The notes beneath the pieces are model-generated. The model was not told the origin of the DNA, ran no database searches, and was given only the letters and a program-made list of their open reading frames with translations. A program made the position numbers and the translations under genes. From assembly GCA_963169195.1 (NCBI GenBank), contig CAUJDN010000123.1, positions 1,021 through 65,020 on the forward strand: a stretch of DNA of 64,000 nucleotides, given 5' to 3'. Shown here piece after piece: positions 5,467 through 49,965 of this stretch. Source of the DNA: Acidobacteriota bacterium. GTDB taxonomy: Bacteria > Acidobacteriota > Vicinamibacteria > Vicinamibacterales > UBA2999. Numbering within the stretch: the stretch's first letter is position 1; each line of letters opens with the position of its first letter.

Positions 5467-5578
5467 GTTCTGGGGTTCTGGGGTTCTGGGGTTCTGAGGT
5501 TCTGAGGTTCTGGGGTTCTGGGGTTCTGCGGTTCTGGGGTTCTGGGGTTTGCGGGTTCTGAGGTTCTGAGGTTCTGAG
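5467..5578. repeat. octamer tandem array GTTCTGRG (=GGGGTTCT family), 14 units, G-rich on plus strand
   Basis: Read directly from the sequence. Units are gttctggg x3, gttctgag x2, gttctggg x2, gttctgcg, gttctggg x2, gtttgcgg, gttctgag x3. Confidence 0.9.
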
Positions 5579-5587
5579 TGCTAGGCT

Positions 5588-6088
5588 CGGGAAGGCAAAG
5601 AAGGGAACCACGGCCGTCGACACGCGCCGCCAGGCCTTGCCGATCGTCGGGAAGCGCTGGCCCCACTCGCTGGCCTCGACGGTGCTGATGAGATCCGGCG
5701 AGACATCGACCGCGTACATTTCCAGCAGAAAGGCCTGAATCTCGCGGACGGTGAGGCCCCGCGCCTATAGCGCGAGGCTCTCGTCATCGAAGCCGGTGAA
5801 GCGGCGTACACGCGCGGCCCGTCATCGGTCAGCACCGTCTTGCCGCCAGTGCCGTTGCGATGATTGGCCGCGTCGTCGGGCTTGGCCCCGCCGGGGGCAT
5901 AGCCGAGATGGTGGCTCAGCTCCGCCCCGAGCGCGCGCTCGATGATGGCTTTCTTGAAGCGCCGGGTGGCGGCCTCGACTTTCGGCCGCGGTCAGCGGCC
6001 CTTCGCGCACGAACTGGTCCAGCACCTGGACCGGCACCGGGGCCAGGATTTCGGCGTCACGCGTTTCGCTCTTCCGTTTGCGGGGCAT
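5588..6088 (-). pseudogene. decayed IS256-family (mutator-type) transposase remnant
   Basis: Three minus-strand frames together give MPRKRKSETRDAEILAPVPVQVLDQFVREGPLTAAE / VEAATRRFKKAIIERALGAELSHHLGYAPGGAKPDDAANHRNGTGGKTVLTDDGP / [41 protein letters not shown] / EWGQRFPTIGKAWRR..VVPFFAFP. These are hallmark IS256 N- and C-terminal blocks. The remnant carries frameshifts, an in-frame TAG and loss of the central DDE region. Confidence 0.8.
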
Positions 6089-6164
6089 GGGACCTCCTCA
6101 TCCTATGCCTCACACACAGAATTTCTGACACCCTCGGCTCGCAGAACCCTCGAAACATGCACTC

Positions 6165-6240
6165 GAGAACCCCAGAACCCCAGAACCCCAGAACCTCAGA
6201 ACCTCAGAACCCCAGAACCTCAGAACCCCAGAACCTCAGA
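6165..6240. repeat. octamer tandem array CAGAACCY (reverse complement of GGGTTCTG), about 9.5 units, G-rich on minus strand
   Basis: Read directly from the sequence. The last unit contains the stop codon of the topoisomerase B-subunit gene. An isolated copy (gcagaaccct) lies at 6141-6150. Confidence 0.9.
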
Positions 6241-8140
6241 CATCTATCTCCCCCGCATCCTCCGCCCGTTCCATGATGAAGCGGAACCGCGCCGAGGCGT
6301 CCTTCCCCATCAGCTCGTTGATCACGCGGTCCGTCACCAGCTGGTCGGCCACCTGCACCTTGAGGAGCCGACGCGTGCGGGGGTTCAGCGTCGTCTCCCA
6401 CAGCACCTTCGGCATCATCTCGCCCAGGCCCTTGAAGCGCGTGATCTCCGGCGTCGCGCGGCCGGTCTTCTGCCGCACGATCTGGTTCTTCTGCGCCTCG
6501 TCCAGGGCCCAGTAGGTCTCCTTGCCGATGTCGATGCGGTAGAGCGGCGGCTGCGCCAGGTACACCTTCCCCGCCGTGATCAGCTGCGGCAGGTGGCGGT
6601 ACAGGAACGTGAGGAGCAGCGTGGAGATGTGATGGCCGTCGGAGTCGGCGTCGGCCAGCAGGATCACCTTGCCGTACCGCATCCGGTTGAGGTCGAAGTG
6701 CTTCCCGACGCCGCACCCCAGCGCGGTCACCAGGTCCGCAAGTTCCTTGTTCTCGAGGACCTTCGCCGTGGACACACCCTCGGTGTTCAGCACCTTGCCG
6801 CGCAGCGGGAGGATGGCCTGCCGTGCGCGGTCTCGGCCCTGCTTGGCCGACCCGCCGGCCGAATCGCCCTCCACGATGAAGAGCTCGCTGGTGATGGAGC
6901 CGGGATGGGTGCAGTCGGAGAGCTTGCCGGGCAGGTTCACGCGCCCCGCCGTGGGCCCCTTCCGCACCACTTCCTGCTGGGCCGCGCGGCTGGCCTCGCG
7001 CGCCCGCGCCGCCAGGATGATGCGCGCGACAATGGCCTCGGCCACCGACTGGTTGTTGTTCAGCCAGTGCTCGAGCGCGGGCCGCACGAGGCCATCCACG
7101 GCCGAGAGCACCTCGGGGTTGTTCAACCGGTCCTTGGTCTGTCCCTGGAACTGCGGCTCCTGCACGAACACGGACAGGATGCCCGTGGTGCCCTCGCGGA
7201 TGTCATCGGCGGTGAGGGTGACGCCCTTCGGCGAAAGGGTGTGCGTCTCGATGTAGTTGCGCACGGCCTTGCCCACCCCGGCCCGGAGGCCGCTCTCGTG
7301 CGTGCCGCCGGAACCCGTCGGGATGCCGTTCACGTAGCTCCGCAGGTGCTCGTCGGTGGACTCGGTCCACTGGAGCACGAGCTCCAGCTTGACGCCGTTC
7401 TCCTTCTCGAGCACGAACGGCGCCTCGTGCACGGGCCTGGCCTGCCGCTCCGCGACGATCTTCTTCAGGTAGTCGACCAGGCCTTCGGCGTGCTGGAACA
7501 CGTCCTTGCGGCCGGCCGGCTCGTCCTCGAAGGCGACCTTGACGCCGCGGTGCAGGTAGCTGGCCACTTCCAGCCGGTCGCGGATGATCGCGCCGTCGAA
7601 CTCCACCTTCGGGAAGATGGTCGGGTCCGGCCGGAAGAACACGCTGGTCCCGCTGCCGCGCGCCGGGCCGGTCTTCCTGAGAGCACCCGTGGGCCTGCCC
7701 TGCTTGAAGCTCATCTCCCACTGCGCGCCGTCGCGGCGCACCGTGGCGACGAGCTCGCGCGAGAGCGCGTTCACCACGCTCGCGCCCACGCCGTGCAGGC
7801 CGCCCGCCGTCTTGTAGTTGCCGGCCTCGAACTTCCCGCCCGCGTGGAGGACCGTGAAGATCACTTCGAGCGCGCTCTTCTTCGTCTTCGGGTGCACGTC
7901 CACCGGGATCCCGCGCCCGTCGTCCTCGATGGTGATGGACGAACCGTCCTTGTGCAGGGTCACCCGGATGTTCGAGGCGTAGCCGTTCATCGCCTCGTCG
8001 ATGGCGTTGTCGAGCACTTCCCAGACCAGGTGGTGCAGCCCCGCGGCGCCGACGCCGCCGATGTACATGCCCGGGCGCTTGCGAACGGGCTCGAGGCCCT
8101 CGAGGACGGTGATGTCTTTGGCTGTGTAAGTCGTGGACAA
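6236..8140 (-). CDS. type IIA DNA topoisomerase subunit B (GyrB/ParE family, short 634-aa form)
   Basis: MSTTYTAKDITVLEGLEPVRKRPGMYIGG..HHLVWEVLDNAIDEA..GGLHGVGASVVNALS (GHKL ATPase) plus the Toprim block EGDSAGGSAKQGRDR and PLRGKVLN. The start codon is TTG. I cannot separate gyrB from parE by eye. Confidence 0.9.
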   Translation of the reverse strand: MSTTYTAKDITVLEGLEPVRKRPGMYIGGVGAAGLHHLVWEVLDNAIDEAMNGYASNIRVTLHKDGSSITIEDDGRGIPVDVHPKTKKSALEVIFTVLHAGGKFEAGNYKTAGGLHGVGASVVNALSRELVATVRRDGAQWEMSFKQGRPTGALRKTGPARGSGTSVFFRPDPTIFPKVEFDGAIIRDRLEVASYLHRGVKVAFEDEPAGRKDVFQHAEGLVDYLKKIVAERQARPVHEAPFVLEKENGVKLELVLQWTESTDEHLRSYVNGIPTGSGGTHESGLRAGVGKAVRNYIETHTLSPKGVTLTADDIREGTTGILSVFVQEPQFQGQTKDRLNNPEVLSAVDGLVRPALEHWLNNNQSVAEAIVARIILAARAREASRAAQQEVVRKGPTAGRVNLPGKLSDCTHPGSITSELFIVEGDSAGGSAKQGRDRARQAILPLRGKVLNTEGVSTAKVLENKELADLVTALGCGVGKHFDLNRMRYGKVILLADADSDGHHISTLLLTFLYRHLPQLITAGKVYLAQPPLYRIDIGKETYWALDEAQKNQIVRQKTGRATPEITRFKGLGEMMPKVLWETTLNPRTRRLLKVQVADQLVTDRVINELMGKDASARFRFIMERAEDAGEIDV

Positions 8141-8157
8141 GGCAGGAAAGATTGTAA

Positions 8158-8229
8158 AGGTTCTGAGGTTCTGAGGTTCTGAGGTTCTGGGGTTCTGGGG
8201 TTCTGGGGTTCTGGGGTTCTGGGGTTCGC
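8158..8229. repeat. octamer tandem array GGTTCTGR, 9 units, G-rich on plus strand
   Basis: Read directly: ggttctga x3, ggttctgg x5, ggttcgcg. It lies about 18 nt upstream of the topoisomerase B start and just downstream of the DUF1835 stop. Confidence 0.9.
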
Positions 8230-8234
8230 GGGCT

Positions 8235-9242
8235 CTAGCGCTGCTCGAAGGTGTCGCGGGCGTCGTTCCAGCGCCAGACGGGGTCGGGCTTCAGGCCGCG
8301 GGAGGCTGGCGACGCCACCAGGTGCACGCCGCCCAGCCAGCGGTCGATGCCGTTGAGCAACACGTGATCCAGTTCGCCGGCGAGCACACGCCGGCCGGCG
8401 TCCGTCAGCGCCAGGCGGGGGGCGGACGGGTCGTCGCGCCACCAGTCCGCATCGTGCCAGCGGCCAGGCGCCGCGCCCTCGGCTCGCATCAGCGGATCAG
8501 CCGCGATGACGAGGGGCCGGATGTGCGACCACCATCCGGCGTCCCCCATGAAGACGGCCTCCTCCACCGCGTGGTTCGCGGCGCGGAATGCGTCGCGAAC
8601 GGGGAGCGGCGATCCCGCCACCGCGGCGAGCGTCTGCCGCTCGGTGCGTGAGAGGCCGTCACGAATCGACGGGAACTGCTCCAGGTGTCGCCGTAGCGAC
8701 GACCTGAGGGAGGGCCACGCTCCAGGATGGTCGAACGACACCAGTCCGGTGGGCTCCGGCGCGCGAAAGCAGTCCCAGGCGTGGGTCGCGGCCGCCCACC
8801 GCCCGGGGCCGAGCGGCTCACGCGCCGCGAACCACGCCGCGAGCTGCTCGTCAGGCTGCGCCGCGAGGTAATCGTCAGCGAGAATCGCCGTGACACGCGC
8901 GATGGCGCCGGTCGCCGCGACACGAATCGGCGCGAGCTGGCTCAGCACCTGGAGGACGTGCAGCTGGTCGTAGAGGTCGTGCTCGAACCACAAGACGATC
9001 TCGTCGCCGGACACGGCCTCGGCCAGCGCCGCATCGCGCGCGGCCAGCGAGCGCTCGATCTGCGCGGCATCGCCCCAATCGACCGCCAGGAACTCCGCCC
9101 GCACCCGCCGCAGCGCCTCGTCGACCAATCCCGCCGGCACGGGACCCTCGTGCAGCACGTCATCCCACGGCACGATGCGGCCCGGCACACCCAGATCGTG
9201 CAGGCGGGAGAGCGCGACAGAGCCGTTGGTGACGTGGAGCAT
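8235..9242 (-). CDS. DUF1835 domain-containing protein
   Basis: ORF 8235..9386. From ATG 9242 it reads MLHVTNGSVALSRLHDLGVPGRIVPWDDVLHEGPVP...EIVLWFEHDLYDQLHVLQVL, the pattern I recognise as the DUF1835 family. The upstream 48 codons are translated repeat. Confidence 0.7.
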   Translation of the reverse strand: MLHVTNGSVALSRLHDLGVPGRIVPWDDVLHEGPVPAGLVDEALRRVRAEFLAVDWGDAAQIERSLAARDAALAEAVSGDEIVLWFEHDLYDQLHVLQVLSQLAPIRVAATGAIARVTAILADDYLAAQPDEQLAAWFAAREPLGPGRWAAATHAWDCFRAPEPTGLVSFDHPGAWPSLRSSLRRHLEQFPSIRDGLSRTERQTLAAVAGSPLPVRDAFRAANHAVEEAVFMGDAGWWSHIRPLVIAADPLMRAEGAAPGRWHDADWWRDDPSAPRLALTDAGRRVLAGELDHVLLNGIDRWLGGVHLVASPASRGLKPDPVWRWNDARDTFEQR

Positions 9243-9337
9243 TCGGGGGTTCGGGGGTTCGGGGGTTCGGGGGTTCTGGGGTTCGGAGGTTCTGGGGTTC
9301 GGGGGTTCGGAGGTTCTGGGGTTCTGGGGTTCTTGAG
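9242..9337. repeat. octamer tandem array TTCGGGGG/TTCTGGGG, 12 units, G-rich on plus strand
   Basis: Read directly from the sequence. The array begins at the DUF1835 start codon and ends 28 nt before the start of the divergent gene at 9365. Confidence 0.9.
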
Positions 9338-11377: not shown

Positions 11378-11382
11378 TCTTT

Positions 11383-11423
11383 AGGTCCTGAAGTCTTGGG
11401 GGTCCTGAGGTCTTGAGGCTCAG
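11383..11423. repeat. degenerate octamer array AGGTCCTG/AAGTCTTG, about 5 units
   Basis: Read directly from the sequence. It sits between the NYN start (6 nt away) and the MBOAT stop, which it overlaps. Confidence 0.7.
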
Positions 11424-31192: not shown

Positions 31193-31203
31193 CAGATCAG
31201 AAC

Positions 31204-31240
31204 GGGAGCCGGGAGTCGGGAGTCGGGAGTCGGGAAGTCG
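31204..31240. repeat. heptamer tandem array GGGAGYC x5
   Basis: Read directly from the sequence: gggagcc gggagtc gggagtc gggagtc gggaagtc. It begins 12 nt upstream of the topoisomerase A start codon. Confidence 0.88.
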
Positions 31241-31242
31241 GG

Positions 31243-31298
31243 CCCCAAGACCTCAAGACCCCAAGACCCCAAGACCTCAAGACCTCAAGACCCAAGGA
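31243..31298. repeat. octamer tandem array CCYCAAGA x7 (minus strand TCTTGRGG)
   Basis: Read directly from the sequence. It is contiguous with the heptamer array, in the divergent spacer between topoisomerase A and TrpB2. Confidence 0.88.
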
Positions 31299-41424: not shown

Positions 41425-41506
41425 GGGGGGATAGTGTATGACGGAAGGTCGGGTGCCGGGGTGCAGGGGTGCACGGGCGCCGGGGTGTCAGGTGCCGCGC
41501 GCAGGT

Positions 41507-42592: not shown

Positions 42593-42600
42593 ATCGCGCC

Positions 42601-42633
42601 GGGAGCCGGGAGTCGGGAGTCCGGAGTCGGGAC
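42601..42633. repeat. heptamer tandem array GGGAGYC x4.5
   Basis: Read directly from the sequence: gggagcc gggagtc gggagtc cggagtc gggac. Confidence 0.85.
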
Positions 42634-43174: not shown

Positions 43175-43209
43175 CTTCGGACTTCCGGTTCCCGGTTCCC
43201 GGTTCCCGA
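43175..43209. repeat. heptamer tandem array GGTTCCC (reverse complement GGGAACC) x3-4
   Basis: Read directly from the sequence: cttcggacttccgg ttcccgg ttcccgg ttcccga. It lies in a convergent spacer abutting the GcvT-like stop. Confidence 0.8.
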
Positions 43210-44411: not shown

Positions 44412-44417
44412 ATTATA
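44412..44417 (-). promoter_or_regulatory. TATAAT -10 box 6 nt upstream of the GcvT-like GTG (leaderless arrangement)
   Basis: The minus strand reads CGCACCCG-TATAAT-CCTCCC-GTG CCC ATC. Confidence 0.5.
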
Positions 44418-44462
44418 CGGGTGCGAACCGGTGCGGGCGGGTGCGGACGGGTGCGGGGGGGG
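44418..44462. repeat. 10-nt tandem repeat CGGGTGCGRR x4 plus G-run
   Basis: acgggtgcga accggtgcgg gcgggtgcgg acgggtgcgg gggggg. It lies immediately upstream of the TATAAT box on the minus strand. Confidence 0.8.
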
Positions 44463-45051: not shown

Positions 45052-45092
45052 GCCCGCTCCGGGCATTGTACGCGCCGCGTGCGTGCCGCACG

Positions 45093-45098
45093 TATAAT
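45093..45098 (+). promoter_or_regulatory. TATAAT -10 box 12 nt upstream of GTG 45111
   Basis: The context is ccgcacg-TATAAT-ctcggcaccacc-GTG. It shares the context CGGCAC..TATAAT..CGGCACCAC with 49977-49999. Confidence 0.5.
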
Positions 45099-45110
45099 CT
45101 CGGCACCACC

Positions 45111-46742
45111 GTGAAATACGACGCCATCGTCATCGGGGGCGGTCACAACGGCCTCACCTGCGCTGCGTACCTCGCGCGCGCGGGGCGACGCGTGCTGGCG
45201 CTCGAGCGCCGGCACGTGCTGGGCGGCGCCGCCGTCACCGAGGAGATCGTCCCGGGGTTCAAGTACTCGGTCTGCTCCTACGTCGTCTCGCTGCTGAGGC
45301 CCGAGATCATCCGCGACCTGGATCTGCCCCGCCACGGCATGGAGCTCCTGCCGCTGGATGGCACGTTCACGCCGATGCCGGGCGGCGACTACCTGTGGCG
45401 CGTGAACGACCACGAGAAGACGCGACGGGAGATCGCGCGCCACTCGCGCCTGGACGCGGAAGCCTACGACGAGTACGGCCGCGCGATGGTCGAGATGGGC
45501 CGCTTCGCCAAGCCCATCCTCGCGATGACGCCGCCGGACCCGACCCGGCTCGATCCCCGGGGCCTGCTGGATCTGCTGTCGCTCGGCACGCGCTTCCGCG
45601 CCATGCGGCCTCACGATCGCATCAACCAGGTGCAGCTGCTCACCATGAGCGCGGCGGACTTCCTGGACCAGTGGTTCGAGACCGACGTGCTGAAGGCCAC
45701 GATGAGCGCGTCGGGCATCATCGGCACGTTCCTGGGCGTGAAGTCGCCGGGAACGGCCTACGTCCTGCTCCACCACTACATGGGGGAGATCGACGGGTCC
45801 TTCCGCTCGTGGGGCCTCTCGCGCGGGGGCACGGGCGCGGTGTCGAACGCCATCGGCGACGCGGCCCGGCGCTTCGGCGCCGAGATCCGGACGAACGCGC
45901 CGGTCGGGCGCATCATCACGAAGAACGGCCGCGCCACGGGCGTCGCGCTCGAGAACGGCGACGAGTTCCACGCCGACACGGTCGTGTCGAGCGTGGATCC
46001 GCGGCTCACGTTCCAGCGCTGGATGGACGAGAAGGAGCTGCCGCCGGACTTCGTCGAGGGCGTGCGCCGCTACAAGTTCCGCGGGTCGTCGGGCAAGGTG
46101 AACCTCGCCCTGGACGGCCTGCCGAACTTCACGTGCCTCCCCGGCGCGGGCCCGCACCTGCGCGGCGCCATCTCCATCTCGCCGAGCGTGGACTACATGG
46201 AGCGCGCCTACGACGATGCGAAGTACGGGCGGTTCTCGCGGCGGCCCTACATCGACATCGTCATCCCGTCGCTGACGGACACGTCGCTGGCTCCGCCCGG
46301 CAAGCACGTCATGTCGTGCTTCGTCCAATACGCGCCCTACGAATTGCGGCGGGAGCCGGGAGCCGGGAGCCGGGAGTCCGAGGACCCGGAGCGCCGGGAC
46401 TCCAGTCCGACCGAGTTCGAGTGGGACCGGCAGCGCGAGGCGTTCGGCGACACGGTCATCGACACCATCGCCGAGTACGCCCCGAACATCCGGGACCTCA
46501 TCCTCCATCGCCAGGTGCTGACGCCGCTCGACATCGAGCGCGACTTCGGGCTCGCGGAGGGCAACATCTTCCAGGGCGAGCTGACGCTCGAGCAGCTGTT
46601 CTTCCTGCGGCCCGTTCCCGGGTGGGCGCAGTACACGACGCCGGTGCGCGGCCTCTACATGTGCGGATCCGCCACGCACCCGGGCGGCGGCATCATGGGC
46701 GCGCCGGGGAAGAACGCGGCGGAACGGATCCTCGGACGATGA
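45111..46742 (+). CDS. FAD/NAD(P)-dependent oxidoreductase of the phytoene desaturase (CrtI-like, COG1233) superfamily, paralogue 1
   Basis: GTG 45111. VKYDAIVIGGGHNGLTCAAYLARAGRRVLALERRHVLGGA is a Rossmann GxGxxG motif. The C-terminus GLYMCGSATHPGGGIMGAPG is typical of the family. Confidence 0.8.
   Translation: MKYDAIVIGGGHNGLTCAAYLARAGRRVLALERRHVLGGAAVTEEIVPGFKYSVCSYVVSLLRPEIIRDLDLPRHGMELLPLDGTFTPMPGGDYLWRVNDHEKTRREIARHSRLDAEAYDEYGRAMVEMGRFAKPILAMTPPDPTRLDPRGLLDLLSLGTRFRAMRPHDRINQVQLLTMSAADFLDQWFETDVLKATMSASGIIGTFLGVKSPGTAYVLLHHYMGEIDGSFRSWGLSRGGTGAVSNAIGDAARRFGAEIRTNAPVGRIITKNGRATGVALENGDEFHADTVVSSVDPRLTFQRWMDEKELPPDFVEGVRRYKFRGSSGKVNLALDGLPNFTCLPGAGPHLRGAISISPSVDYMERAYDDAKYGRFSRRPYIDIVIPSLTDTSLAPPGKHVMSCFVQYAPYELRREPGAGSRESEDPERRDSSPTEFEWDRQREAFGDTVIDTIAEYAPNIRDLILHRQVLTPLDIERDFGLAEGNIFQGELTLEQLFFLRPVPGWAQYTTPVRGLYMCGSATHPGGGIMGAPGKNAAERILGR
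46351..46378 (+). repeat. heptamer array GGGAGCC x3 plus GGGAGTC inside the CDS (encodes EPGAGSR)
   Basis: Read directly from the sequence. The codons are cgg cgg gag ccg gga gcc ggg agc cgg gag tcc. Confidence 0.88.
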
Positions 46743-48316
46743 CATACGACGCCATCGTGATGGGCGGGGGCATCAACGGGCTGACCTGCGCGGCGATGCT
46801 GGGAAGGGCCGGGCTCCGGACACTGCTGCTCGAAGGGCGCGACGCGGTGGGCGGCTGCGCGGCCGAACACGAACTGGCCCCCGGGTTCCGCGTGCCCACG
46901 CTCGCCCACCGCACGGGACCGTTGCGCGCGGACGTCGTGAACGACCTGCAGCTGGCGAACCACGGGCTGTCCTTCGTCGCGCGCCCCGTGCGGATGACGG
47001 CGCTCTCGCCCGACGGCCGCGCGCTGGCGCTCTTCGCCGACCCCGCGGCGGCGGCAGGCGCCATCCGGCCGTGGTCCGACCACGACGCGGCGGCGTGGCC
47101 CGCCTTCGCCCGGTCGCTCTCCAGGGTCGCCGGCGTCGTGGGGACGCTGCTGGCCCGCACGCCCCCGGACGTGGACGATCCCGGTGCCCACGATCTCTGG
47201 ACGGCGATGCGCGCGCTCGGCGCCTTCCGAGGGCTGCCGAAGGACGATGCATGGCGGCTGCTCCGGTGGGGACCGATGGCGGTGGCCGACCTGACGAGCG
47301 AGGTCTTCCAGACCGAGCTCCTGCGCGCAGCCGTGGCGGCCGACGGCCTGCTGGGTGGGATGATGGGGCCCTGGTCCGCCGGCAGCGGCCTTCAGCTGCT
47401 GCTCCATGCAGCCAACCAGGCGGTAGCGGCCCTGCGCGATGCGGAGGTCGAGGGCGGGCCCATCGCGGTCGCGCGAGCCCTGGAGGCCGCCGCCCGGCGG
47501 CACGGCGTGGGCATCCGGACGCACGCCGAAGTCGCCCAGGTGGTGGTGCGCGGCGATCGCGCCGCCGGCGTCACGCTCACCTCGGGCGAGACGATCGAGT
47601 CACGCGCCGTCGTGTCCGGCCTGGATCCGAAGCGCACGTTCCTCTCGCTCTGCGACGCGGACCACCTGCCGCCGGAGTTCCTCTGGCGCATCCGGCGCGT
47701 CCGCACGCGCGGGACGCTGGCCAAGGTCAACCTGGCGCTGTCCGCGCTGCCGGTGTTCGGCGAGGCGACCAGGCCGATGCTCGCGGGCCCGGTGCGCATC
47801 GCGCCGACGCTGGACTACCTGGAGCGGGCGTTCGATCACGCCAAGTACGGCGAGTGGTCGCGCGAGCCGTGGATCGAGTTCACCATTCCCTCGCTCGTGG
47901 ACGCCTCGCTGGCGCCCGCGGGCGCGCACGTGCTGTCGGCGTACGTGCAGTGGGTGCCGCGTGGCGTCGGGAGGCGGGAGCCGGGAGCCGGGAGCCGGGA
48001 CACCGACGCCATCCTCGACACGGTGCTGGCCACGCTGGAGCGCTACTCGCCCGGACTCCGCGGGCTCATCGTCGCGAGCGAGATCATCACGCCCGCCGAC
48101 ATGGAGCGCGAGTGGGGGCTCAGTGGCGGGCACGTCTTCCACGGTGAGCTGGCGCTGGACCAGATGTTGATGATGCGGCCGCTGCTCGGCTTCGGGCGCT
48201 ACCGCTCGCCCATCGACGGGCTGTTCCTCTGTGGTTCGGGCACGCATCCGGGCACGGGGCTGACGGGCGGGTCCGGGGCTAACGCCGCCCGCGTCATCGC
48301 CGGGTGCCTGCGCTAG
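46739..48316 (+). CDS. FAD/NAD(P)-dependent oxidoreductase of the phytoene desaturase (CrtI-like) superfamily, paralogue 2
   Basis: ATG 46739 forms an ATGA overlap with paralogue 1. It reads MTYDAIVMGGGINGLTCAAMLGRAGLRTLLLEGRDAVGGC... and has the C-terminus GLFLCGSGTHPGTGLTGGSG. Confidence 0.8.
   Translation: MTYDAIVMGGGINGLTCAAMLGRAGLRTLLLEGRDAVGGCAAEHELAPGFRVPTLAHRTGPLRADVVNDLQLANHGLSFVARPVRMTALSPDGRALALFADPAAAAGAIRPWSDHDAAAWPAFARSLSRVAGVVGTLLARTPPDVDDPGAHDLWTAMRALGAFRGLPKDDAWRLLRWGPMAVADLTSEVFQTELLRAAVAADGLLGGMMGPWSAGSGLQLLLHAANQAVAALRDAEVEGGPIAVARALEAAARRHGVGIRTHAEVAQVVVRGDRAAGVTLTSGETIESRAVVSGLDPKRTFLSLCDADHLPPEFLWRIRRVRTRGTLAKVNLALSALPVFGEATRPMLAGPVRIAPTLDYLERAFDHAKYGEWSREPWIEFTIPSLVDASLAPAGAHVLSAYVQWVPRGVGRREPGAGSRDTDAILDTVLATLERYSPGLRGLIVASEIITPADMEREWGLSGGHVFHGELALDQMLMMRPLLGFGRYRSPIDGLFLCGSGTHPGTGLTGGSGANAARVIAGCLR
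47969..48003 (+). repeat. heptamer array GGGAGGC plus GGGAGCC x3 plus GGGACAC inside the CDS (encodes REPGAGSR)
   Basis: Read directly from the sequence. It sits at the loop homologous to the insert in paralogue 1. Confidence 0.88.
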
Positions 48317-48375
48317 CACCGCGGCGGCGACTGTCCGCTGGCGATTGCCCGGACTGGCCATCGCCGATGAGCCGC

Positions 48376-49965
48376 CTATGAGTACAGCGGCTCCCACATG
48401 GCGGCGGCAACCGCGGCAGCGAGGTCGGGCGTCCGGCCCACCCCCGCCAGCCCGTCGGTGAAGGCGACGCTCGCGACCGCGGCGGCCACCGCGCGCGATA
48501 CCTCGCGCAGGCGAGCCGGCGCCGGGTACACGCGCCCTTCCGCCAGTTCCGCTTCGGTCACGCACCCGGCCAGCGCGCGTGCCGCCGCGAAGAACATCTC
48601 GTCGGTGACGCGCCGCGCGCCCGCGACGAGCAGGCCCAGCCCAACGCCGGGGAAGACGAACGCGTTGTTTCCCTGTCCCGACACGTGCACGCGCCCGGCA
48701 TGCGCCACCGACGGAAACGGGCTGCCGCTCGCGAAGATGGCGCGGTCAGCAGTCCACGCATAGGCCTGCTCCGCGGTGCACTCCGCCTTCGACGTGGGGT
48801 TCGAGAGCGCGAACACCACCGGGCGCTCGTTGAGGCGCGCCATCGCGGCCAGCACGTCCTCGGTGAAGCGCCCGCCCTGCCCGCAAGCGCCGATGATGGT
48901 CGTCGGCTGAAACGCCTCGACGGCGGCGGCCAGATCCGGCACGGGCGCGCGGTCCTGCGCGAAGCGGCGCTTGTGCTCCGGCAAATCGGTGCGGCTGGCA
49001 ACCACGAGCCCGCGTGAATCCACGAACAGGCACCGCCCCAGCGCCTCGGGCTCCGACAGCCCCTCGCGCCGCATCGCGGAGACGACCAGGCCGCCCACGC
49101 CCAGGCACGCCTCGCCTGCCCCGACGAACAGCAGGCGCTGCTCGCGAAGCGCCTTCCCGGTAATCCGCCCCGACGAGAGGAGGCCGGCCAGCCCCATCGC
49201 GCCCGTGCCCTGCACATCGTCGTTGAAGCAACAGAGCCGATCGCGATGGCGCCCGAGCAGCCGGAACGCCGAGGCGTTGTTGAAGTCCTCGAACTGCACG
49301 ATGACGCCGGGGAACACGTCCTGCGCGGCCTCGACGAACTCCTCCAGGAAGTCGTCGTACCGCGCGCCCGTCAGCCGGGGCTGGCGCTCCCCCAGGTAGT
49401 GCGGGTGCTCGCGCACGGCTCTGTTGTCGGTGCCGACGTCGAGCGTGATGGGCAGGCCCAGCGCCGGGGGCACCCCCGCGCAGGCGGTGTAGAGCGCCAG
49501 CTTGCCGATCGGAATCCCCATCCCGTTCACGCCGAGATCGCCGAGCCCGAGGATGCGGCCGCCGTCGGTCACGACGATGATGCCGACGCGCGCGCGCGGC
49601 CAGTTGCGCAACACCTCACGGACGCGCCCGCCATGCTGCCACGCCGAGAGGTAAAGGCCCCTCGGCCGCTCGAAGATGTCGCTCCACTGGGTGCACGCCT
49701 CTCCCACCGTGGGCGTGTACACGACGGGCAGGAGTTCCTCGAGGTGGTCGACGAGCACGCGAAAGAACAGCGTCTCGTTCTCGTCGCGCACCCCGCAGAG
49801 GCACATGTAGCGCTCCAGCGGGCCCGACCTCGCCCGGACCTTGGCCAGGACGCGGTCCGCCTGCTCGGCGAGCGACTCGACGCGCGGCGGCAGGACGCCG
49901 TCGATGCCGAGCGCGCGGCGCTCGTCGAGCGTGCAGGCCGTGCCCTTGTTCGTCAGTGGATCCAC
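48376..49965 (-). CDS. NAD(P)-dependent malic enzyme (oxaloacetate-decarboxylating malate dehydrogenase)
   Basis: VYTPTVGEACTQWS, VVTDGGRILGLGDLGVNGMGIPIGKLALYTACAG and FNDDVQGTGA. I moved the start to GTG 49965 (VDPLTNKG), which has a GGGGGAGG Shine-Dalgarno 5 nt upstream. The longest ORF start (50016) would overlap the divergent promoter and start codon. Confidence 0.85.
   Translation of the reverse strand: MDPLTNKGTACTLDERRALGIDGVLPPRVESLAEQADRVLAKVRARSGPLERYMCLCGVRDENETLFFRVLVDHLEELLPVVYTPTVGEACTQWSDIFERPRGLYLSAWQHGGRVREVLRNWPRARVGIIVVTDGGRILGLGDLGVNGMGIPIGKLALYTACAGVPPALGLPITLDVGTDNRAVREHPHYLGERQPRLTGARYDDFLEEFVEAAQDVFPGVIVQFEDFNNASAFRLLGRHRDRLCCFNDDVQGTGAMGLAGLLSSGRITGKALREQRLLFVGAGEACLGVGGLVVSAMRREGLSEPEALGRCLFVDSRGLVVASRTDLPEHKRRFAQDRAPVPDLAAAVEAFQPTTIIGACGQGGRFTEDVLAAMARLNERPVVFALSNPTSKAECTAEQAYAWTADRAIFASGSPFPSVAHAGRVHVSGQGNNAFVFPGVGLGLLVAGARRVTDEMFFAAARALAGCVTEAELAEGRVYPAPARLREVSRAVAAAVASVAFTDGLAGVGRTPDLAAAVAAAMWEPLYS

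What the first reader, a model, noticed from the sequence alone, without database searches (positions are those of the whole stretch)
46351..48003. The same G-rich heptamer array (GGGAGCC)3-4 sits in frame at the homologous loop of two tandem CrtI-like paralogues
Paralogue 1 carries GGGAGCC x3 plus GGGAGTC at 46351-46378. Paralogue 2 carries GGGAGGC plus GGGAGCC x3 at 47969-47996. Both are translated as (R)REPGAGSR, between the conserved VQ(Y/W).P segment and the ..DTV(I/L)(D/A)T(I/L).(E/R)Y(A/S)P helix. The flanking protein sequences are strongly diverged, yet the repeat DNA is nearly identical. It is also identical in type to the intergenic arrays at 31204, 42601 and 43175. That argues for recent acquisition, gene conversion or array spread rather than ancient shared ancestry. 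Three units (21 nt) keep the frame. Gain or loss of one 7-nt unit would frameshift, which is the mechanism of slipped-strand phase variation in contingency loci. Each array also has four or more GGG runs with 4-nt loops on the sense strand, so the mRNA could form an RNA G-quadruplex inside the ORF.
Basis: partly seen in the sequence, partly recalled or inferred. Interest (0 to 1): 0.7.

Follow-up and report, generated by a model that had tools for sequence, protein, structure and literature searches.

The report
In-frame heptamer microsatellites in paralogue loops
Two neighbouring enzyme genes of a soil acidobacterium each carry the same short 7-base repeat in a floppy loop; it came from a genome-wide population of such repeats that spread and homogenise, and it does not look like an on/off switch.

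Summary
(GGGAGCC)3 plus one variant unit sits in frame, giving RREPGAGSR, at the same loop of two tandem CrtI-fold FAD oxidoreductase genes. These are P1 (45111-46742) and P2 (46739-48316). They share 40% of residues and 57% of bases, yet have a 28-nt identical run at the arrays; the next longest shared run is 15 nt.

The host is a Vicinamibacterales bacterium. Across Acidobacteriota both gene lineages ancestrally have a tight 4-residue turn here, so the arrays are derived. Among the 119 nearest P1 clusters, 52 keep the turn and 67 carry inserts. Many of the inserts translate different heptamers (GGGAGTC, GGGAACC, GGGATCA, GGGTGCC).

The heptamer unit co-varies between P1 and P2 within a genome, and tends to match other arrays of that genome. 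Genomes with inserts have about four times more 7-8-nt arrays elsewhere, mostly intergenic.

No copy-number variant appears among strain-level assemblies. An orthologous intergenic array keeps its unit count between species. The insert lies in a low-confidence coil between a strand and a helix.

Verdict: near-neutral in-frame microsatellites in an indel-tolerant loop, with concerted evolution. Array spread or gene conversion is supported. Phase variation and a conserved G-quadruplex role are not.

The parts
45111..46742 (+). Paralogue 1 (P1), 543-aa CrtI-fold FAD-dependent oxidoreductase; GTG start 12-13 nt after a TATAAT box
   Evidence: ORF. Pfam Amino_oxidase/DAO/NAD_binding_8. NCBIfam crtI_fam 118.6 bits, below the 238.1 cutoff. 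AF2 model pLDDT 81; Foldseek top hits 4REP and 4DGK. Exact protein P0001.
46351..46378 (+). P1 array, well-preserved part: GGGAGCC x3 + GGGAGTC, read as (R)EPGAGSRE
46341..46421 (+). Whole P1 loop between TAC (Y) and TGG (W). It is 63 nt (9 heptamers) longer than insert-free alleles; the 3' part is decayed heptamer units (TRF array 46350-46399).
   Evidence: DNA alignment with L001, L005, L006 shows a 63-column gap. TRF period 7, 6.7 copies, 78% matches. Residues 412-431 have pLDDT <50 and are coil.
46739..48316 (+). Paralogue 2 (P2), 525 aa, 40% identical to P1; its ATG overlaps the P1 stop (ATGA)
47969..48000 (+). P2 array: GGGAGGC + GGGAGCC x3 + GGGA, read as GRREPGAGSRD. It replaces the ancestral LRxxxWD turn.
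31203..31242 (+). Intergenic array of the same family: GGGAGCC + GGGAGTC x3-4, directly abutting a second array (CAAGACCT)6.5 at 31246-31296
42600..42632 (+). Intergenic array of the same family (GGGAGCC, GGGAGTC x2, CCGGAGT, ...), 8 nt after a stop codon. Orthologous array in L089 has the same unit count.
43185..43208 (-). Intergenic (GGGAACC)3 on the minus strand, just downstream of the GcvT-like gene
5467..9332 (.). Region with four longer intergenic octamer arrays: 5467-5576 (GTTCTGGG)14, 6166-6240 (AGAACCCC)9, 8159-8227 (GGTTCTGG)8.6, 9242-9332 (TTCGGGGG)11. They show the genome-wide array population to which the loop arrays belong.

Best explanation
The two arrays are near-neutral, in-frame microsatellite insertions. 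They belong to a lineage-specific, genome-wide population of G-rich 7-8-nt tandem arrays found in a subclade of Vicinamibacterales. These arrays fill short intergenic spacers. They survive inside genes only where the protein tolerates them.

The tolerant site here is a disordered, indel-tolerant loop between a beta-strand (residues 399-406) and a helix (435-456). The loop is homologous in P1 and P2. A heptamer array is read in all three phases over 21 nt. Any unit without a stop triplet in its cyclic sequence is therefore translated as a 7-residue Gly/Ser/Pro/Arg/Glu-rich repeat, provided the total added length is a multiple of 3 (63 nt in P1).

The near identity of the P1 and P2 arrays does not come from the ancient gene duplication. 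It comes from non-allelic exchange, either short-tract gene conversion or template switching. The exchange runs between the two arrays 1.6 kb apart and with other arrays of the same genome. As a result the unit sequence evolves in concert within a genome and differs between genomes.

Shown: the derived state, the loop location, the genome-wide array family, the within-genome co-variation, and the stability of copy number.

Inferred: the molecular route of exchange or seeding. One possibility is microhomology with the ancestral R-E-G codons (C/A)GG GAG GGC, which already look like a GGGAGGC unit. Near-neutrality at the protein level is also inferred.
For: (1) Derived state. The insert-free turn APYxL(K/R)(E/D)GxWD is found in 76 of 80 species-representative genomes and 79 of 80 metagenome contigs, including tandem P1-P2 pairs. 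Of the 119 nearest P1 clusters, 52 have the turn and 67 have inserts that make the loop 6-45 residues long.

(2) Many inserts translate different heptamers: RESGVGS = GGGAGTC, DPGTGN = GGGAACC, DQGSGI = GGGATCA, RVPGAGC = GGGTGCC. This was checked on DNA.

(3) Co-variation of the P1/P2 unit within genomes: window GGGAGCC/GGGAGCC; L089 and L090 GGGAGTC/GGGAGTC; L002 GGCAGCC/GGCAGCC; L014 GGCA(A/G)(A/C)C in both; L176 GG(G/A)ATC(A/G) in both, with a shared 14-nt higher-order period. Only 8 of 720 permutations reach the observed concordance.

(4) Loop units match non-loop arrays of the same genome (distance <=1) in 42% of comparisons, against 14.5% across genomes; 30 of 5000 permutations reach this. 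The same unit also occurs in frame in a DUF1501 gene of L177.

(5) Array density outside the loops is 1.54 per 10 kb in insert-bearing genomes and 0.36 in insert-free ones (p=3e-8). It is 0.48 in equally GC-rich insert-free genomes. 32 of 49 arrays lie in the 7% non-coding DNA.

(6) Identity is confined to the array: 28 nt exact, flanks unrelated, next longest run 15 nt.

(7) The AF2 model has pLDDT 81, and the insert residues 412-431 are <50 and coil. The loop also hosts unrelated REP-like insertions in other genomes. This shows tolerance rather than a specific function.

(8) Copy number is stable across strains and between species.
Against: Co-variation is not universal. L173 has GGGAGGC in P1 but (GGAGCAC)13 in P2. 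By peptide, P0066 and P0188 (paired only by matching contig length) also differ. The number of independent genome pairs is small (5-6), and all units are related by 1-3 substitutions, so the permutation tests have limited power. The L014 pair was mis-assigned; the correct pairing would strengthen the result. A 21-28-nt tract is near the lower limit for RecA-dependent exchange, and no conversion tract extends into the flanks. A rough NJ tree needs many gains or losses at exactly this codon, which a pure 'tolerant loop' filter does not fully explain. Surface exposure is inferred from low pLDDT and indel tolerance, not measured.
Confidence: 0.6

Rival explanations
1. Independent origin without exchange. 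Each paralogue's array arose or was seeded separately at the homologous turn, because the conserved R-(E/D)-G-x-W-D codons ((C/A)GG GAG GGC ... TGG GAC) form a G-rich proto-unit or microhomology site. The two arrays look alike only because they start from the same local sequence or copy the same abundant array type of that genome.
For: Insert-free alleles read CTG AGG GAG GGC ACG TGG GAG (L005) and TTG CGG GAA GGA ACC TGG GAC (L006). These contain GGGAGGGC and GGGAAGGAACC, close to the observed units GGGAGGC and GGGAACC. In all clades the arrays begin on the Arg codon followed by GA(G/C/T). The first P2 unit in the window is GGGAGGC. Loop units also match unlinked arrays of the same genome. 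L177 and L178 have a P1 array but none in P2; L001 has the reverse.
Against: In-situ stepwise growth of a 7-nt unit must pass through frameshifted intermediates in a gene that is about 75% identical across the phylum. Sister genomes differ at the same unit position in all units of both paralogues (window CC, L089 TC; L002 vs L014). That fits ongoing exchange better than two independent histories. L176 shares a 14-nt higher-order period in both arrays.
Confidence: 0.2
2. Phase-variable contingency switch. Slipped-strand gain or loss of one 7-nt unit switches each gene off and on, as in E. coli K1 neuO.
For: The arithmetic holds: 7-nt units, with only multiples of three in frame. A true precedent exists in neuO, where full-length translation requires a repeat number divisible by 3 (PMC13001214). 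Some relatives carry much longer in-frame arrays, e.g. 13 units in the P2 loop of L173. An intergenic array region differs by 123 nt between two 99.95%-identical contigs.
Against: There are only 3-4 perfect units. In neuO, genomes range from 3 to 53 repeats, 20 is the commonest count, and 66% of genomes are out of frame. All 5 DNA assemblies covering the P1 array and all 8 covering P2 have the window's unit count. All 8 P1 and 3 P2 cluster members have the same length. The orthologous intergenic array has 5 units in two species. The tract is in the last quarter of the ORF, and the gene family is a conserved housekeeping-type oxidoreductase.
Confidence: 0.06
3. Selected nucleic-acid or peptide function. 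The arrays are kept because they form an RNA or DNA G-quadruplex, bind a genome-specific factor, or encode a useful flexible linker that co-regulates the two paralogues.
For: The G3N4 x4-5 motif lies on the sense strand in both genes. The arrays are G-rich on the coding strand in P1, P2 and the DUF1501 example. Within-genome sharing of units could reflect co-evolution with a binding factor.
Against: A G4 is not in the predicted minimum-free-energy structure in +/-40-nt context, and is only 0.2 kcal/mol better for the isolated P2 array. Orthologous arrays lack GGG runs in several genomes. About 44% of close orthologue clusters have no insert at all. The encoded peptides differ widely (REPGAGS, RDQGSGI, RVPGAGC, SRQPAAG). 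The 3' half of the P1 insert is decaying.
Confidence: 0.08

Closest known systems
neuO of E. coli K1 (CUS-3 prophage): in-ORF heptanucleotide (AAGACTC)n phase-variable switch
   Same: A 7-nt tandem repeat lies inside a coding sequence. Three units encode seven residues. Only repeat numbers divisible by 3 give the full-length protein (PMC13001214).
   Different: The neuO tract is long (3-53 units, commonly about 20), lies at the 5' end, is highly polymorphic and is often out of frame. Here there are 3-4 units in a mid-to-late loop, with invariant copy number in all assemblies seen. The host gene is not a surface-modifying or contingency gene.
Cyanobacterial STRR (short tandemly repeated repetitive) heptamer sequences
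   Same: Heptanucleotide tandem arrays are dispersed at many, mostly intergenic, sites. Their unit sequences are lineage-specific, which is why they are used for strain fingerprinting (PMC5088731; the description as heptamers rests on my knowledge of Mazel et al. 1990).
   Different: The phylum is different (Acidobacteriota, Vicinamibacterales). The units are different and G-rich, and 8-mers are also common. In-frame occupation of enzyme loops and within-genome co-variation of units are documented here. I found no report of either for this clade.
Rickettsia palindromic elements (RPEs) inserted in frame in protein-coding genes
   Same: A dispersed repeat is inserted in frame into unrelated or conserved metabolic genes, is absent from orthologues, and sits at positions compatible with fold and function (PMC10969869).
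   Different: RPEs are palindromic MITE-like elements of about 150 bp encoding a conserved peptide. Here the inserts are simple tandem heptamers without defined ends or shared flanks. Separate REP-like hairpin elements do land inside these arrays in relatives.
Concerted evolution of dispersed satellite or microsatellite families (molecular drive; my own knowledge)
   Same: Units are homogenised within arrays and among arrays of one genome, while diverging between genomes.
   Different: This is classically a eukaryotic phenomenon with long arrays. Here the arrays are 20-110 nt in a bacterium, and some are under reading-frame constraint.

Membership tests
SSR-mediated phase-variable contingency locus (neuO type) | Long perfect repeat tract prone to slippage | tested here: not met
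   There are 3 perfect units plus 1 variant in each gene. neuO ranges from 3 to 53 repeats, most commonly 20.
SSR-mediated phase-variable contingency locus (neuO type) | Copy-number polymorphism, including out-of-frame alleles, among close strains | tested here: not met
   L081-L084 and L087 (P1) and L081-L088 (P2) have arrays identical to the window. 8 P1 and 3 P2 cluster members have identical lengths; the only variant is a T/C change in unit 4. Read-level data are not available.
SSR-mediated phase-variable contingency locus (neuO type) | Tract in the promoter or 5' coding region of a surface, host-interaction or restriction-modification gene | tested here: not met
   The tract lies at residues 412-420 of 543 in a CrtI-fold FAD oxidoreductase that is about 75% identical across Acidobacteriota classes.
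STRR-like dispersed heptamer arrays | Tandem heptamer units at many dispersed, mostly intergenic loci | tested here: met
   There are 10-12 arrays of period 7-8 in the window. 32 of 49 arrays in related loci lie in the 7% non-coding DNA, p=1e-24.
STRR-like dispersed heptamer arrays | Lineage-specific or genome-specific unit sequences | tested here: met
   GGGAGYC (window, L089), GGCAGMC (L002, L014), GGRATCR (L176, L177), GGGTGCC (L178). 30 of 5000 permutations reach the observed unit sharing.
STRR-like dispersed heptamer arrays | Cyanobacterial host and STRR1-3 consensus units | tested here: not met
   The host is Vicinamibacterales. The units differ from CCCCAGT, TTGGTCA and CAACAGT (consensus recalled from memory).
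In-frame selfish repeats (RPE-like) | Dispersed repeat inserted in frame in conserved ORFs and absent from orthologues | tested here: met
In-frame selfish repeats (RPE-like) | Palindromic element of about 100-150 bp with defined ends encoding a conserved peptide | tested here: not met
   The inserts are simple heptamer arrays. The array sites share no flanks. The encoded peptides vary with the unit.
In-frame selfish repeats (RPE-like) | Insertion at surface-exposed, structurally tolerant positions | tested here: inconclusive
   Residues 412-431 have pLDDT <50 and are coil between strand 399-406 and helix 435-456. Loop length varies from 4 to 45 residues among orthologues. Solvent exposure was not computed.
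CrtI / phytoene desaturase family (host genes) | Score above the TIGR02734 crtI_fam cutoff | tested here: not met
   118.6 bits (P1) and 102.3 bits (P2) against a cutoff of 238.1. The best hit, CrtO NF045689, scores 314 and 212 against a cutoff of 1000.
CrtI / phytoene desaturase family (host genes) | CrtI-type fold with an N-terminal FAD-binding GxGxxG motif | tested here: met
   Foldseek gives 4REP at TM 0.75/0.83 and 4DGK at E=3e-21. The GGGHNG and GGGING motifs are at residues 9-14.
Canonical G-quadruplex motif | Four or more G3 runs with loops of 1-7 nt | tested here: met
   There are 4 runs in P1 (46351-46374) and 5 runs in P2 (47969-47999), each with 4-nt loops.
Canonical G-quadruplex motif | Quadruplex favoured over competing structure, and conserved in orthologous arrays | tested here: not met
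   RNAfold with G4 energies gives no G4 in the minimum-free-energy structure with +/-40-nt context. Orthologous arrays made of GGCAGCC, GGAATCG or GGAGCAC units lack G3 runs.

The most novel reading that the evidence does not exclude
A subclade of Vicinamibacterales may possess an active, so far undescribed process that creates or re-templates G-rich 7-8-nt tandem arrays at many loci. Candidates are microhomology-primed copying from existing arrays during break or fork repair, or an enzyme that adds templated repeats. Under this reading each genome carries its own 'current' unit families. New arrays appear in intergenic spacers, at gene junctions (the P1-P2 spacer of L089) and in tolerant protein loops (P1, P2, DUF1501). 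Old arrays are overwritten in concert. The two paralogue arrays would then be read-outs of that process rather than passive slippage products.
Probability: 0.15. Interest if true: 0.85.

Novelty: new variant of a known kind. Interest (0 to 1): 0.55.

Why it matters
Bacterial genomes are usually poor in microsatellites, and in-ORF repeats are normally read as phase-variation switches. This case gives a different picture. A whole clade of abundant soil Acidobacteriota has genomes dotted with G-rich heptamer and octamer arrays. The arrays colonise short spacers and even loops of highly conserved enzymes. Their units change in concert within a genome while their copy number stays stable.

This matters in three ways. 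First, it warns against annotating such tracts as contingency loci. Second, it offers natural markers of indel-tolerant loops in proteins. Third, it provides a tractable system for asking how dispersed short arrays are born and homogenised in bacteria: tandem paralogues 1.6 kb apart with matching arrays, set against many genomes with and without inserts.

Tried and rejected
(1) The first AlphaFold run, on 18 close orthologues, gave pLDDT 35 and was discarded. A 143-sequence P1+P2 alignment gave pLDDT 81.

It was useful only for establishing the ancestral state. Close relatives were then fetched one by one; P0018 returned no DNA.

(3) Literature searches for heptamer or tandem repeats in Acidobacteria and Vicinamibacter found nothing relevant.

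(4) I tested whether the arrays are termini or footprints of the REP-like hairpin elements seen inside arrays of L003 and L174. No copy of either element is in the window with up to 3 mismatches, and array sites share no flanks. The idea was dropped as a general explanation.

(5) G-quadruplex: not favoured in silico and not conserved.

(6) Assembly artefact: rejected. The arrays are shorter than assembly k-mers and recur identically in independent Logan, JGI and NCBI assemblies.

(7) Lineage-specific C-to-T bias at CCGG as the cause of the CC/TC difference between the window and L089: not supported. The orthologous intergenic array has three TC units in both genomes.

(8) A single gain with vertical descent: the NJ tree with the loop masked places insert-free sequences inside insert-bearing clades. 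The tree is too poorly resolved to count events.


Full report
**Observation.**
The sequence is as described. P1 (45111-46742, GTG start) carries GGGAGCC x3 + GGGAGTC at 46351-46378. P2 (46739-48316) has an ATG that overlaps the P1 stop as ATGA, and carries GGGAGGC + GGGAGCC x3 at 47969-47996. Both arrays are read as RREPGAGSR.

A two-unit pattern with one mismatch occurs 8 times in the window against 0.24 expected. The two hits outside the genes are the intergenic arrays at 31204 and 42601. The array at 43185 is (GGGAACC)3 on the other strand, so it is related rather than identical.

The proteins are 40% identical and the genes 57% identical over aligned codons. Even so, they share a 28-nt exact run at the arrays; the next longest homologous run is 15 nt.

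**The host genes.**
Both genes encode FAD-dependent oxidoreductases of the CrtI fold. Pfam finds Amino_oxidase, DAO and NAD_binding_8. NCBIfam scores for crtI_fam and CrtO are well below the cutoffs. By sequence the closest solved structure is CrtI, 4DGK.

An AlphaFold model built on 143 P1 and P2 relatives has mean pLDDT 81. Its best structural matches are 4REP (TM 0.75/0.83) and 4DGK. So 'CrtI-like' is right at the fold level, but neither gene is a certified family member.

Names attached to close homologues, and the genome records, place the window in Vicinamibacterales, Acidobacteriota.

**The insert is derived, and the loop is a hot spot.**
In 76 of 80 species-representative genomes the P1 orthologue has a tight turn, APYxL(K/R)(E/D)GxWD. 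The same holds for 79 of 80 metagenome contigs. Several Vicinamibacterales (L005-L012) have the tandem P1-P2 pair with the short turn in both genes.

Among the 119 nearest P1 clusters (82-95% identical), 52 have the 4-residue turn. The other 67 have loops of 6-45 residues. P2 relatives show the same pattern.

Many inserts are translations of other heptamers:
- RESGVGSRE is (GGGAGTC)n.
- DPGTGNRE is (GGGAACC)n.
- DQGSGIRD is (GGGATCA)n.
- RVPGAGC is (GGGTGCC)n.

I verified this on DNA for nine further genomes.

Relative to insert-free alleles the window's P1 loop is exactly 63 nt longer, which is nine heptamers. The 5' units are well preserved and the 3' units decayed. In P2 the array has replaced the old turn, so the net gain is only about three residues.

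In the model, residues 412-431 are coil with pLDDT below 50, between strand 399-406 and helix 435-456.

Unrelated REP-like hairpin elements have also landed in this loop, inside the arrays, in other genomes. The site therefore tolerates almost anything.

**The arrays belong to a genome-wide population.**
The window has 10-12 arrays of period 7-8. All but the two in P1 and P2 are intergenic.

In eight related loci with gene calls, 32 of 49 arrays lie in the 7% non-coding DNA (p about 1e-24). Of the 17 arrays inside genes, 11 are these two loops. Another gene, DUF1501, carries in-frame arrays at one and the same codon in two genomes.

Genomes whose loops carry inserts have 1.54 arrays per 10 kb outside the loops. 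Insert-free Acidobacteriota have 0.36 (p=3e-8), and equally GC-rich insert-free genomes have 0.48.

**Concerted evolution.**
The unit differs between genomes but agrees between P1 and P2 within a genome:

| Genome | P1 unit | P2 unit |
|---|---|---|
| Window | GGGAGCC | GGGAGCC |
| L089, L090 (P1 95% identical to the window) | GGGAGTC | GGGAGTC |
| L002 | GGCAGCC | GGCAGCC |
| L014 | GGCA(A/G)(A/C)C | GGCA(A/G)(A/C)C |
| L176 | GG(G/A)ATC(A/G) | GG(G/A)ATC(A/G) |

In L176 the two arrays also share a 14-nt higher-order period.

Only 8 of 720 permutations of genome labels give P1-P2 concordance as good as observed. One pair in that test was mis-assigned in a way that weakens the result.

Loop units are within one substitution of non-loop arrays of the same genome in 42% of comparisons, against 14.5% across genomes. 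Only 30 of 5000 permutations reach this.

There are exceptions. L173 has GGGAGGC in P1 and (GGAGCAC)13 in P2. Some genomes have an array in only one paralogue.

Identity stops at the array edges. Any exchange is therefore confined to the repeat tract.

**Not a switch.**
- All five independent DNA assemblies covering the P1 array, and all eight covering P2, have the window's unit counts.
- The 8 P1 and 3 P2 protein variants in the 90% clusters all have the same length. One P2 variant was seen on 30 contigs. The only difference in the array is a T/C change in unit 4.
- The intergenic array at 42600 has five units in both the window and L089, with only C/T changes within units.
- In neuO, repeat numbers range from 3 to 53 and two thirds of genomes are out of frame.

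The tract here is short, late in the ORF, and sits in a gene conserved across the phylum. I therefore give phase variation about 6%.

**G-quadruplex.**
The motif is present here. However, ViennaRNA with G4 energies does not use it in context. Orthologous arrays in other genomes also lack G3 runs. A conserved G4 role is therefore unlikely. A local effect in this strain cannot be excluded without experiment.

**Mechanism.**
A heptamer array passes through all three reading phases every 21 nt. A unit whose cyclic sequence contains no stop triplet is therefore translated as one 7-residue repeat whatever the phase, and only the total length must be a multiple of three. This follows directly from the sequence.

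G-rich units meet that condition and encode Gly/Ser/Pro/Arg/Glu-rich, flexible peptides. Selection then acts as a filter, leaving arrays only in spacers and tolerant loops.

Why exactly this turn, in both paralogues? The ancestral R-E-G-x-W-D codons read (C/A)GG GAG GGC ... TGG GAC. That is already a near-unit (GGGAGGC), and every array starts on the Arg codon. This would favour microhomology-primed copying from an existing array, or slippage seeding, at the same place in both genes.

The step from proto-unit to an in-frame array, and the route of homogenisation (short-tract conversion versus template switching), are inferred, not shown.

**Comparison and novelty.**
The arrays work like cyanobacterial STRR heptamers in being dispersed and lineage-specific. 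They work like Rickettsia palindromic elements in being in-frame repeats in conserved genes. They are a member of neither family.

They share the frame arithmetic of neuO but not its behaviour.

I found no description of such arrays in Vicinamibacterales. I rate the finding as a new variant of a known kind, of moderate interest. The more novel possibility is an active array-generating or re-templating process, at about 15%.

Noticed in passing
window 5467-5576, 6166-6240, 8159-8227, 9242-9332, 11378-11418, 31246-31296, 41451-41492, 44417-44461: Many intergenic spacers carry G-rich 7-10-nt tandem arrays of different units: (GTTCTGGG)14, (AGAACCCC)9, (GGTTCTGG)8.6, (TTCGGGGG)11, (TCTTGAGG)5, (CAAGACCT)6.5, (GGGTGCAG)5, (ACGGGTGCGG)4. 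The GGGGTTCT unit recurs at three sites within 3 kb, in both orientations. Several arrays start within about 10 nt of a stop codon.
   Followed up: partly
L089:13274-13589; L171:11460-11766; L172:11337-11598: Between the convergent P2 and malic-enzyme genes, three relatives carry arrays in inverted arrangement, (CATTGGGG)n followed by (CCCAATC)n. Together these could form a long imperfect hairpin. The window has only a 60-nt spacer there (48316-48376).
   Followed up: no
L174:9640-9760 and L174:11000-11120; L003:6890-6915: REP/MITE-like hairpin elements sit inside heptamer arrays, flanked by units on both sides, in the P2 loop and in the P1-P2 spacer. Their peptide traces are FDSAQGRP and SAEALAKAE / AGALAKAE. 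The end of one element (GGCGGAAGCC) itself resembles a unit. No copy is in the window.
   Followed up: partly
L177:16290-16324 and L178:16261-16292: A DUF1501 gene has in-frame heptamer arrays at the same codon in two genomes, with different units (CAGGGAT vs CAGGCCT). This is a second recurrent tolerant-loop site. The L177 unit equals that genome's P1-loop unit.
   Followed up: partly
window 45090-45113; L171:7890-8005, L176:7895-8005, L177:7912-8005: P1 has a TATAAT box 12-13 nt upstream of its GTG start in all relatives, so its mRNA is probably nearly leaderless. In relatives, arrays of different units (GGGTGCGG, AAGGGCTT, GCGGGCT) sit directly upstream of this -10 box.
   Followed up: no
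window 46739-46742 vs L089:11633-11663, L002:5598-5624, L014:5599-5627: P1 and P2 overlap by ATGA in the window. In several relatives they are separated by a spacer made almost entirely of heptamer units of that genome's family, with the GATGAC around the start codon duplicated in L089.
   Followed up: partly
L174:11480-12260 vs L175:11480-12140: Two contigs that are 99.95% identical over 11.5 kb differ by a 123-nt indel inside an intergenic region of (CCGACTC)n arrays. This is either strain-level length variation of a higher-order repeat or assembly collapse.
   Followed up: partly
window 46372-46378; proteins P0241, P0246: Strain variants of P1 have GGGAGCC instead of GGGAGTC as the fourth unit (S to P). 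Units at several arrays differ mainly by C/T at the outer C of CCGG, which might reflect deamination of methylated cytosine.
   Followed up: no
L173:10865-10953: The P2 loop of this relative holds a 13-unit in-frame (GGAGCAC) array, the longest in-gene array seen. Slippage would be most plausible there.
   Followed up: no
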